A stretch of DNA of 63,164 nucleotides, filler included, from Licmophora abbreviata (Eukaryota), in assembly GCA_900291995.1 (NCBI GenBank). It is 8 parts of 8 records of this genome, joined end to end, with 100 filler letters (N's around TTAATTAATTAA, not from the genome) between each part and the next. Parts side by side here need not be neighbours in the genome. Positions count along the whole stretch, not along the records: positions 7,328 to 20,378 come from OLMU01001473.1; 7 more parts are not named here. One strand, given 5' to 3'. Below are positions 10,671 through 13,356 of the stretch, piece by piece (within the stretch, counting starts at the first letter, position 1; each line of letters starts with the position of its first letter). A program made the translations under genes and the position numbers. The notes beneath the pieces are model-generated. The model was not told the DNA's origin. It was given only the letters and a program-made list of their open reading frames with translations, and did no database searches.

Positions 10671-10814
10671 CGCGCGAGTCATCGTTTCTACTATTAATGG
10701 CGCTCGGAGTTCTATATTTTCCGTCGACTCGTAGTAAGAGGAGCCGACCAGTCCCAGTGATCATACCGTCGATCAAGTACCATGCATGAACGGGTGAATG
10801 AAAGATGAGTATGG

Positions 10815-12156
10815 TTACGAAACAGACATACCCCGTTGCTTTTCGGCACGAAACTTCTCCCAGTACTCCTTCTCGCGGAACGGGTCTGACTCCAGCTGCC
10901 AGTTACCCATCATACAACAGCAATCGTCCTCCACCTTGATGGAAGCGACACTGCTACGTTTGTATACGCGCTGGACACTGGGGCGGCGTTTCGTGGAGGG
11001 ACATGCAGCCACCGCAAGCTTGGCGTCCGAAGCGGCACAGGTAAACAGATTCTCCTTCATTTCCTTTAAACCTCCTTCGTCAGCCATCAGTGTGATTACG
11101 AAGCGCTTCGGCCGAAAGGTGGAAATAACGTTCTTGATAAGGGGCTTGTAGGAGACCAGCTTTTGGTTCGTTTCGAAGCTAACGTAACTTGACCCAGACT
11201 CTGGAGTGATATGGATCGTCGAGTAGGATCGGTAGAGAATCGCGTTCATCGAGTAGCCGCAGGGTTCAAACGCACGGGCGTCAATGATGGCACCGGGACA
11301 AAGTGCGTCGATGCCAGACATGATCGTCTGTGCATCCGAAATGCGTCGAATCTCGACCTCCTTCGTTTCGTCCAAGTCCGTCCTTCAAGTACGTGTTGTA
11401 ATGGAATATATCTCCCACATCCTCGTCAACATCAAACATCATAATGTTCAAGACACGATCAGTATCGACATCGGCAGCCTGGCTGCGGTGGGTCTGGTCA
11501 GCAACAAAGACGAACCAGTGATCCGAGTTGATTGGTCCTAGCGTGTAGCCGTTGCCATCAAGGCGGTCGCAAAGTCGCTTGTGACTGTACAGGTATTCCA
11601 TCTCTTGCGAAAAGGACGTATGCGGAAACGCTTGGTCGTCCGGAAAGTTGAAGTTTTTGCGCGAGTACCCTACCCAATCAATCTCCAATCCGACACGCTT
11701 TCCGAGCTCAATCAGAACGGCCATGCAGCGCAACAACGTCGTCGTCCCGCATGTCTTGAGCATGACCATGTAGGGATAGACAAAGAGAGAAGACTCACTG
11801 AGAACATAGGCATCCAAATACTGGTTTGAAATTCCTGAGAGAATCGAGCAGCTAGCGCGGCGGCAAATGCGATCCAGATCGGCGCGAGAGAGTGACCGGA
11901 GTCCGACGGGTTCGGCAGACATTGCAGCCGCAGGTTGGTCTGTGCCTCCAGTCTTGCGAAAGAATACCTCCAAGGTCTTTTCGGGCCCTTCGAACACCCC
12001 CGTATACTCGCGATCGACGTTTCCCGAGCCCTCGTCGTCTGAAAAGGGCTGCTGGGGCTGTAACGTTAAGCCACATTCATTGTCTCTCTCGTGGGTGGAG
12101 TGACTAGAAATTGAGTCAGGATCCGGGGACCCGTGACGAGGGTATTCGTCCGTCAT
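10815..12156 (-). CDS. SAMDC: S-adenosylmethionine decarboxylase proenzyme (AdoMetDC/SAMDC), split by a +1 frame change near 11375
   Basis: 5' frame from ATG 12156 has FEGPEKTLEV, YVLSESSLFV (cleavage/pyruvoyl site), LKTCGTTTLL and FPHTSF. The +1 frame has FEPCGYSMN and STIHITPE..SYVSFETN. Confidence 0.93.
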
Positions 12157-12190
12157 CAAGTCTGGTTGTATTTCGTTCGCGAGAGGGCTT

Positions 12191-12377
12191 TCAAGAAGCA
12201 CCTTCCTTGGCAGTAGGAACAGCCAAGATGATTGGAACCACGGATACAATGGTCGGAATACTCTGTAGACGCAAAGAGGTGCCAGACAATAGTATGCATC
12301 AGACTACTGGTCAAGAAGCATCACATCAAGCTAGGATTTTCTCAGAAGGAAGTCTTCTCTTCTGGACTTACGAGCAT
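12191..12377 (-). promoter_or_regulatory. Spliced AUG uORF (25 aa) in the SAMDC 5' leader
   Basis: ATG CTC|GTAAGT at 12377-12366; 109-nt intron 12371-12263 ending CTACAG; spliced ORF MLSIPTIVSVVPIILAVPTAKEGAS* with stop at 12193-12191. Confidence 0.6.
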
Positions 12378-12957
12378 ACAAGAACCGGCGGCGAAAGAGA
12401 GCTATAGTCGACGAAATCTACTACCGCAGCGCACTATTAGGAAAGAGAAATGGTCAAGCTCCAGAAGAAACACGCTGGCAATGCACTCGAAAATAGCTCA
12501 GAGGCTGGACCAGGCCTAATGACGCCGGTCTGCCGTCGTGTGATGTTTCTTTTTTGTGATGACGATGATGAGAAATGAGATTGAGACGTGCTGTGGTGCT
12601 GTGGCTTCCATGAAACGAGTGGCTGGCAGACCACTTTGATTTTTGGCGCTGGGGGGAACGGAGCGCATGCGCGCGAAAATACGCACTCCGTTCAAAACCT
12701 GATTTGCTTCTGACATTTTTTGCTAGATAAAAGCATGAAGATCTTTATCTATGATATTTATTTTTTAAATATACTTGAATAAGTCTATATATCGCATTGG
12801 CGATGAAAAATGGAGAAACACCAAAAAGAACAAAGAAGGCGTTGCCGTGAGACGGAGACCCCGCGCGCAAAACCTGACATTCCATGGGATCGCCACAACG
12901 TCCAAGCTTCATCATCAGCAGGCCTGAGTTTCGGTCGCAACAGGGATATCGATAGCC

Positions 12958-13356
12958 ATGGCAGAAGGATCAAATGCAGCGGGGCTCCCCCCGAAGCCAG
13001 AAGAACAGATCGCCTCCTTCGACGATGAGGAAGAGGATGAACAGCAGATGAACCAAGCCAAGTCATGGGATGAAGGTGGACCCAGCGACTGTGGCTACAA
13101 CGAGTCGGTACATAGTACTCTCATGTCGCTTGGAGGATCGGTTCATGGCGCGGTAGGGAAGCCTAGTGAACCCTTTCAGAACGGAATCAGCGCGATTGGA
13201 AACTGGTTCCAGGAGGCATCCTATGCGGTCCGGGACATCTTCCGCGGCGAGAAAGAAGTCCACAACGATGCCCACGAGGCCTTCAATACTCTCGTGGCTG
13301 GTGGAGCCAGCGAAGAAGACAAATCCACGGCAAATGGTCCTGTCACAGAATCTTAG
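12958..13356 (+). CDS. Small acidic hypothetical protein
   Basis: 132-aa ORF with GCCATGG start context, divergent from SAMDC; protein-like composition, no known motif. Confidence 0.7.
   Translation: MAEGSNAAGLPPKPEEQIASFDDEEEDEQQMNQAKSWDEGGPSDCGYNESVHSTLMSLGGSVHGAVGKPSEPFQNGISAIGNWFQEASYAVRDIFRGEKEVHNDAHEAFNTLVAGGASEEDKSTANGPVTES

What the first reader, a model, noticed from the sequence alone, without database searches (positions are those of the whole stretch)
12156..12417. Spliced SAMDC 5' leader with two overlapping uORFs, one ending in a UGAUG stop/start overlap
Seen: a canonical leader intron (GTAAGT 12371 to CTACAG 12263). After splicing, an AUG uORF reads MLSIPTIVSVVPIILAVPTAKEGAS*. 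A second frame with no AUG is open from AUU at 12417 and reads ISSTIALFRRRFLYAQYSDHCIRGSNHLGCSYCQGRCFLKALSRTKYNQT*. It is Cys/His-rich, and its UGA (12158-12156) shares its A with the SAMDC AUG. Known: SAMDC mRNAs are repressed by polyamine-sensing uORFs (mammalian MAGDIS; plant overlapping tiny/small uORFs with leader introns), and antizyme-inhibitor mRNAs use AUU-initiated uORFs. Neither peptide resembles those, so this may be an independently evolved diatom polyamine sensor.
Basis: partly seen in the sequence, partly recalled or inferred. Interest (0 to 1): 0.72.

Follow-up and report, generated by a model that had tools for sequence, protein, structure and literature searches.

The report
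Known diatom SAMDC leader-peptide uORF
The short spliced reading frame ahead of this diatom's polyamine-synthesis gene is real, but it belongs to a diatom family already in print, probably a polyamine-sensitive brake on translation, and the proposed second reading frame looks like a chance by-product.

Summary
The sequence is as described. The 25-codon AUG uORF is not new: Ivanov, Atkins and Michael (PMC2811004, Suppl. Fig. 2) list its Phaeodactylum counterpart, 14 of 25 residues identical by my count. A profile of 25 homologues finds the AUG frame at E 6e-8 and neither other frame; changes fall on its third codon positions. The intron after codon 2 recurs in 8 of 28 homologues. The AUU frame is unsupported: weak context, stop overlapping the main AUG in 0 of 28 homologues, Cys/His arising from the uORF's Val/Ala/Ile codons. 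Best reading: a leaky, peptide-dependent brake that stalls at termination when polyamines are high (inferred, untested). Small additions: 27 homologues all end Ser-stop, 24 followed by CA (2 of 43 main stops), but only 18 have the reportedly invariant proline. This copy ends Ala-Ser, has A at +4 and scores lowest of 28. The coding frameshift at 11377 is probably an assembly error. The scan reported this family before on other diatom DNA.

The parts
12372..12377 (-). uORF exon 1: AUG plus one codon, in a weak start context (U at -3, C at +4)
   Evidence: homologues have U at -3 in 21 of 28 and C at +4 in 25 of 28
12263..12371 (-). 109-nt GT-AG leader intron, phase 0 after uORF codon 2
   Evidence: same position in 8 of 28 assembled homologues; the intron-free homologue L002 aligns to the spliced uORF without gaps, 16 of 25 residues identical. 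Not shown by RNA
12191..12262 (-). uORF exon 2: hydrophobic core (VVPIILAVP), Ala-Lys, tail ending Ala-Ser-UGA
   Evidence: profile of 25 homologues, E 5.9e-8; counterpart in PMC2811004 Suppl. Fig. 2
12181..12199 (-). Termination region of the uORF; family consensus Pro-Ser(UCC)-stop-CA-N-CC-Y, here Ala-Ser(UCU)-UGA-AA-G-CCC-U
   Evidence: lowest score of 28; letters matched by contigs of runs X1 and X2
12157..12190 (-). 34-nt spacer between uORF stop and SAMDC AUG
   Evidence: spacers of 22-259 nt in all three phases among 28 homologues
10815..12156 (-). SAMDC/AdoMetDC coding sequence, main AUG in weak context (U at -3); split into two frames at about 11377 in this assembly
   Evidence: PF01536 positions 3-201 and 210-304; only PF01536 locus found in G000; a contig of run X2 lacks one base at 11377
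12156..12417 (-).

Best explanation
The leader carries one conserved-peptide uORF, the diatom AdoMetDC uORF family. Shown: the spliced AUG frame is under protein-level selection, has a conserved weak start context, and in the family ends in Ser-stop with a conserved 3' context. Inferred from the plant, mammalian and yeast cases: at low polyamine most scanning ribosomes pass the weak uORF AUG, or terminate quickly, and reach the SAMDC AUG; at high polyamine, ribosomes that translate the peptide stall at its stop codon, block scanning and cut SAMDC synthesis, a negative feedback. The intron is an ordinary one that must be removed to build the peptide. The AUU frame and the UGAUG overlap are by-products. 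This copy has a drifted tail and may be a weaker brake than its relatives.
For: Published counterpart in P. tricornutum and T. pseudonana (PMC2811004). Profile hit on the AUG frame only, E 5.9e-8 among 2190 sequences. Differences to 25 homologues by codon position 0.41/0.32/0.59. Family-like uORF in 27 of the 45 closest SAMDC loci (25 of the 27 built the profile). uORF AUG has U at -3 in 21 of 28, main AUG has A in 22 of 28. All 27 end in Ser, none uses UAA, 26 have C at +4, against 11 of 43 main-ORF stops. Polyamine-dependent stalling at PS* and MAGDIS uORF stops is stated in passages of PMC10855120.
Against: No translation, stalling or polyamine response was measured in any diatom here, and the 2010 review gives the diatom uORFs as sequences only. 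This copy lacks the penultimate Pro and has A at +4 (0 of 27 homologues), so the motif that carries the analogy is altered. 18 of the 45 closest loci gave no clear hit; many are cut short, but L007 and L026 have 1112 and 768 nt upstream of their first in-frame AUG. The main AUG here is itself in weak context, unlike most homologues.
Confidence: 0.8

Rival explanations
1. One reading: a second uORF starts at AUU 12417 (or another near-cognate codon) and its UGAUG couples termination to re-initiation at SAMDC, perhaps replacing a decayed stall tail in this lineage.
For: The frame is open for 50 codons and overlaps the main AUG. The same frame is open across the uORF in 17 of 28 homologues, against 9-10 expected from synonymous recoding. 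This copy has the weakest tail of the family and a weak main AUG.
Against: Stop overlaps the main AUG in 0 of 28 homologues, including the closest, L002. The AUU has U at -3 and +4 and is simply the first codon after two stops. No shared near-cognate start in that frame among homologues, and it closes within 3 codons of the uORF AUG in 6 of 28. Junctions that would make stops are not significantly rarer than in SAMDC coding regions (21 of 87 against 351 of 1083, Fisher p 0.12). Cys, His and LGC appear in that frame of homologues as a shifted reading of the Leu-Ala-Val and Ile codons.
Confidence: 0.05
2. The uORF is orthologous but in this species has lost polyamine-dependent stalling and acts only as a constant leaky damper.
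For: Substitutions cluster in the last four codons and at +4, the best conserved part of the family; lowest score of 28. The Ala codon is matched by contigs of two other studies.
Against: The core, Ala-Lys, terminal Ser, UGA and the CCCU at +7 to +10 are kept. 9 of 27 homologues also lack the Pro, one ending Ala-Ser (L046). The score (5.7) is close to the next lowest (7.5, 8.2).
Confidence: 0.12
3. Antizyme-like recoding: a +1 shift at UCU-UGA, or readthrough, carries ribosomes from the uORF into SAMDC, or a non-AUG start gives an N-terminally extended enzyme.
For: UCC-UGA resembles the antizyme shift site (recalled). In this window the +1 frame runs without a stop into SAMDC, as in L002 and L042.
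Against: Fusion is possible by +1 in 3 of 29, by -1 in 3 of 29 and by readthrough in 0 of 29 leaders. The +1 frame is open across the uORF in 8 of 28, about 10 expected. Polyamine-stimulated shifting would be positive feedback.
Confidence: 0.03

Closest known systems
Diatom AdoMetDC uORFs of Phaeodactylum tricornutum and Thalassiosira pseudonana (Ivanov, Atkins, Michael, NAR 38:353, PMC2811004, Suppl. Fig. 2)
   Same: Single AUG uORF of 25-29 codons, same hydrophobic core and Ala-Lys, terminal Ser, short spacer to the main AUG; 14 of 25 residues identical to the Phaeodactylum peptide (my count by eye).
   Different: Ends Ala-Ser rather than Pro-Ser; spacer 34 nt against 56 and 86. The review does not mention the intron (0 occurrences of 'intron' in the main text) and its figure gives no bases after the stop.
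Plant AdoMetDC tiny/small uORF pair (Pfam PF08132 for the small uORF)
   Same: Conserved-peptide uORF ending in (Pro)-Ser before the same enzyme; probably the same stall-at-stop logic.
   Different: No tiny uORF, half the length, no sequence match.
Mammalian AMD1 MAGDIS uORF; yeast HOL1 MLLLPS* uORF
   Same: Ser-stop ending and polyamine-dependent slow termination (PMC10855120 passages).
   Different: Six-residue peptides; MAGDIS starts 14 nt from the cap, whereas 11 homologous contigs I checked here carry 90-250 nt before the uORF AUG.
AZIN1/ODC upstream conserved coding regions with AUU starts
   Same: Only the codon AUU.
   Different: There the AUU is conserved, in good context, and the peptide has Pro-Pro near its end; none of this holds for the window's AUU frame.

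Membership tests
Diatom AdoMetDC conserved uORF (PMC2811004) | AUG uORF of about 25-30 codons upstream of AdoMetDC | tested here: met
   25 codons, 34 nt upstream of a PF01536 gene
Diatom AdoMetDC conserved uORF (PMC2811004) | Peptide similarity to the diatom uORFs | tested here: met
   E 5.9e-8 against a profile of 25 homologues; 14 of 25 identical to the printed Phaeodactylum peptide (by eye)
Diatom AdoMetDC conserved uORF (PMC2811004) | Host gene is a diatom SAMDC | tested here: met
   Falls in a 37-row clade (100/97) with Phaeodactylum, Fistulifera, Nitzschia, Cylindrotheca and Coscinodiscus proteins (L029 and L037 dropped for introns)
Pro-Ser-stop uORFs (review's generalisation; AZIN1, HOL1, plant small uORF) | Penultimate proline | tested here: not met
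   Ala here. 9 of 27 homologues also lack it, so it does not define the diatom family; the window is not filed as a PS* uORF
Diatom AdoMetDC conserved uORF (PMC2811004) | Polyamine-dependent repression by ribosome stalling | not testable with these tools
   Needs ribosome profiling or reporters; I found no such test for a diatom in searches
Plant tiny/small uORF pair | 2-3 codon tiny uORF overlapping a 48-55 codon small uORF (PF08132) | tested here: not met
   The only AUG within 200 nt upstream of the main AUG in the spliced leader is 12377; no Pfam match at E 10 for exon 2 or three homologous peptides
AZIN1/ODC uCC | Conserved near-cognate start in good context | tested here: not met
   AUU context U at -3 and +4; no shared start among 28 homologues
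AZIN1/ODC uCC | Pro-Pro near the C terminus, often Pro-Ser end | tested here: not met
   The AUU frame contains no proline
Antizyme +1 frameshift | ORF1 stop joined to the main ORF in the +1 frame across orthologues | tested here: not met
   3 of 29

The most novel reading that the evidence does not exclude
The stall signal of stramenopile AdoMetDC uORFs is not Pro-Ser but Ser(UCC)-UGA/UAG followed by an mRNA element CA-N-CC-Y lying in the ribosome's entry channel, with the penultimate residue free (Pro, Ile, Phe, Val, Asp, Tyr, Ala). Chrysophyte-like SAMDC leaders reach an Asp-Ile-Ser-stop ending, the same as mammalian MAGDIS, independently. This window is a natural weak allele of that signal.
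Probability: 0.3. Interest if true: 0.5.

Novelty: new member of a known kind. Interest (0 to 1): 0.2.

Why it matters
As found, little: another member of a uORF family printed in 2010 and already met by this scan. The useful residue is comparative. The conserved bases after the stop and the non-invariant proline say which features to mutate to learn how polyamines slow termination, and diatoms, which use long-chain polyamines in silica walls (recalled), have no tested translational control of this enzyme that I could find.

Tried and rejected
Sequencing runs: no RNA holder listed. One run guessed to be RNA (X4) gave a single contig, 11967-12220, which stops short of the splice junction; no joints were listed. 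So splicing and the start site are not shown by reads. Antizyme-like frameshift, readthrough and N-terminal extension: rejected. Rfam on 10700-13000: two matches far below gathering score. The family's stop-context pattern in G000: 10 matches against 13 for the control, nothing enriched; those loci were not examined further. Viral contigs (1 locus) and genome contigs (75 loci, titled as prokaryotic) were not used. My first motif scan required a C after the stop and broke off at L070; I repeated the search with a profile lacking the tail over all 80 loci to remove that bias. Literature searches returned nothing on stramenopile DIS endings or on the bases after these stops, judged from listings only.

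Full report
Observation. All coordinates hold. On the minus strand a 109-nt GT-AG intron (12371-12263) splits an AUG uORF after its second codon. Spliced, the uORF has 25 codons and stops at 12193-12191, 34 nt before the SAMDC AUG. The frame from AUU 12417 is open for 50 codons and its UGA overlaps the main AUG. The SAMDC frame is also open across the spliced leader, so all three frames are open. The gene matches PF01536, is the only such locus found in G000 (the assembly has 7734 contigs and may be incomplete), and groups with named diatom proteins.

The AUG uORF is known. The review PMC2811004 (I read the abstract, parts 1-3 of 4 of the main section, and part 1 of 2 of supplement 1) says AdoMetDC uORFs occur in diatoms and always have a penultimate proline outside vertebrates and sea squirt. 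Its Suppl. Fig. 2 prints a 26-residue Phaeodactylum peptide with the core VVPIVLAVP and the end AKSYPS. With one gap, I count 14 of 25 identities to the window's peptide. An earlier report of this scan reached the same family and paper on another diatom; my reading was formed before I saw it.

Which frame is selected. A scan of metagenome contigs with a SAMDC alignment kept the best 80 of 567 confirmed loci. From these I assembled 28 homologous uORFs by hand. A profile from 25 of them (L030, L043, L044 left out as short or different) scores the window's AUG frame at E 5.9e-8 among 2190 sequences and reports neither other frame. Differences between the window and these 25 fall at codon positions 1/2/3 at rates 0.41/0.32/0.59; amino-acid identity is 0.44 in the AUG frame, 0.28 in +1 and 0.31 in +2. 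A tail-less profile run over 1403 segments from the 80 loci hit 27 loci at E below 1e-4, all among the 45 closest; 25 of the 27 had built it, L041 and L046 were new. Of the 18 misses, L019 and L030 are weak family-like hits, L043 and L044 have another peptide, and 14 gave nothing; many of those contigs are short, but L007 and L026 are not. The loci are related to each other, so these counts are not independent events.

The intron. Eight of the 28 (L011, L017, L024, L029, L030, L032, L036, L042) have a donor straight after uORF codon 2, as here (acceptors of L030 and L032 chosen by eye). The other 20 are contiguous. L002, the closest locus, aligns to the spliced uORF without a gap. This supports splicing by comparison; I have no RNA evidence.

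The AUU frame. Its stop overlaps the main AUG in 0 of 28 homologues. The AUU has U at -3 and +4, whereas the AZIN1 AUU is described as conserved and in Kozak context. No near-cognate start is shared, and the frame closes within three codons of the uORF AUG in 6 of 28. Its Cys/His content recurs in homologues as the shifted reading of hydrophobic codons. A junction test against SAMDC coding regions was not significant (21 of 87 against 351 of 1083, p 0.12), so I put the excess down to dinucleotide avoidance and relatedness, without having proved it.

How it probably works. The uORF AUG is in weak context in the family (U at -3 in 21 of 28) and the main AUG usually strong (A in 22 of 28), which fits leaky scanning. 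All 27 profile hits end in Ser (UCC 24, UCU 3), stop at UGA (22) or UAG (5), and are followed by C in 26 and A at +5 in 24; at 43 main-ORF stops of the 45 closest loci, C follows in 11, CA in 2, and UAA is used in 13. Selection thus acts on the termination site. Passages of PMC10855120 state that high polyamines inhibit termination at the PS* uORFs of AZIN1 and HOL1 and at MAGDIS; the primary papers I saw only as citations. I infer the same negative feedback here. No step of that mechanism was measured.

What differs here. The proline is present in only 18 of 27 homologues, so it is not invariant in this set. The window has Ala, UCU and A at +4 (0 of 27) and scores lowest of 28 in a leave-one-out comparison, 5.7 against 7.5-30.4. 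Contigs from runs of two studies match the window over this tail with no differences, at low depth. It may be a weaker brake. Spacer phase is free, so frameshift or readthrough fusion to SAMDC is rejected (3, 3 and 0 of 29).

Coding frameshift. The SAMDC ORF changes frame near 11377. A contig of run X2 lacks one base there, and the loose end of an X5 contig reads on as if it did too (my reading of the loose end; depths 2-3). Most full-length homologues are single 410-447 residue proteins. An assembly error is the likeliest cause; a null allele in this genome is not excluded.

Literature limits. Searches cover open-access papers only. PMC9648851, PMC13578316 and PMC13582744 were seen as passages and add nothing on diatom uORFs. 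That the bases after the stop, the intron position and the DIS endings are not in print rests on these searches alone; part 2 of the review's supplement was not read.

Verdict. Real uORF, known family, second uORF unsupported. Interest 0.2.

Noticed in passing
window 11377 (SAMDC coding region, minus strand): The reading frame breaks here; contigs of two other runs appear to lack one base at this place. Probably an assembly error.
   Followed up: partly
L047:174, L048:174, L050:745, L051:1284, L055:205, L059:305, L061:192 (stop codons): SAMDC leaders outside the diatom clade carry frames ending Asp-Ile-Ser-stop followed by CA, the same ending as mammalian MAGDIS. The SAMDC of L055 clusters at 90% with a Dinobryon (chrysophyte) protein. 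Picked by hand after a scan that required C at +4; not all have a located AUG.
   Followed up: partly
L053:206, L054:1284, L057:1437, L062:1436; L063:195, L066:1131, L067:1290, L076:167: Further distant SAMDC leaders end in Ile/Val-Ala-stop-CA or Gly/Ala-Ile-Ser-stop-C; L076, on a very long branch, has the diatom consensus after its stop. Organisms not identified.
   Followed up: partly
L019:141-236: A family-like uORF whose tail has changed to end in Tyr-Gln-stop, still followed by CAG.
   Followed up: no
L008:1183-1358, L018:865-1010, L037:1126-1357 (approximate): These genomic loci lack the intron inside the uORF but seem to have one between the uORF stop and the main AUG.
   Followed up: no
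L030:712-914: A shortened 18-codon version of the uORF that keeps the intron after codon 2 and the Pro-Ser-UGA-CA end.
   Followed up: no
window 12958-13356 (+): A divergent 132-codon acidic ORF without a Pfam match; the A+T-rich stretch 12600-12800 between it and SAMDC is the likely shared promoter region (inference).
   Followed up: no
L084-L157: Eukaryote-type SAMDC relatives at about 27-39% identity in bacterial genomes, many of them Bdellovibrionota and Myxococcota.
   Followed up: no
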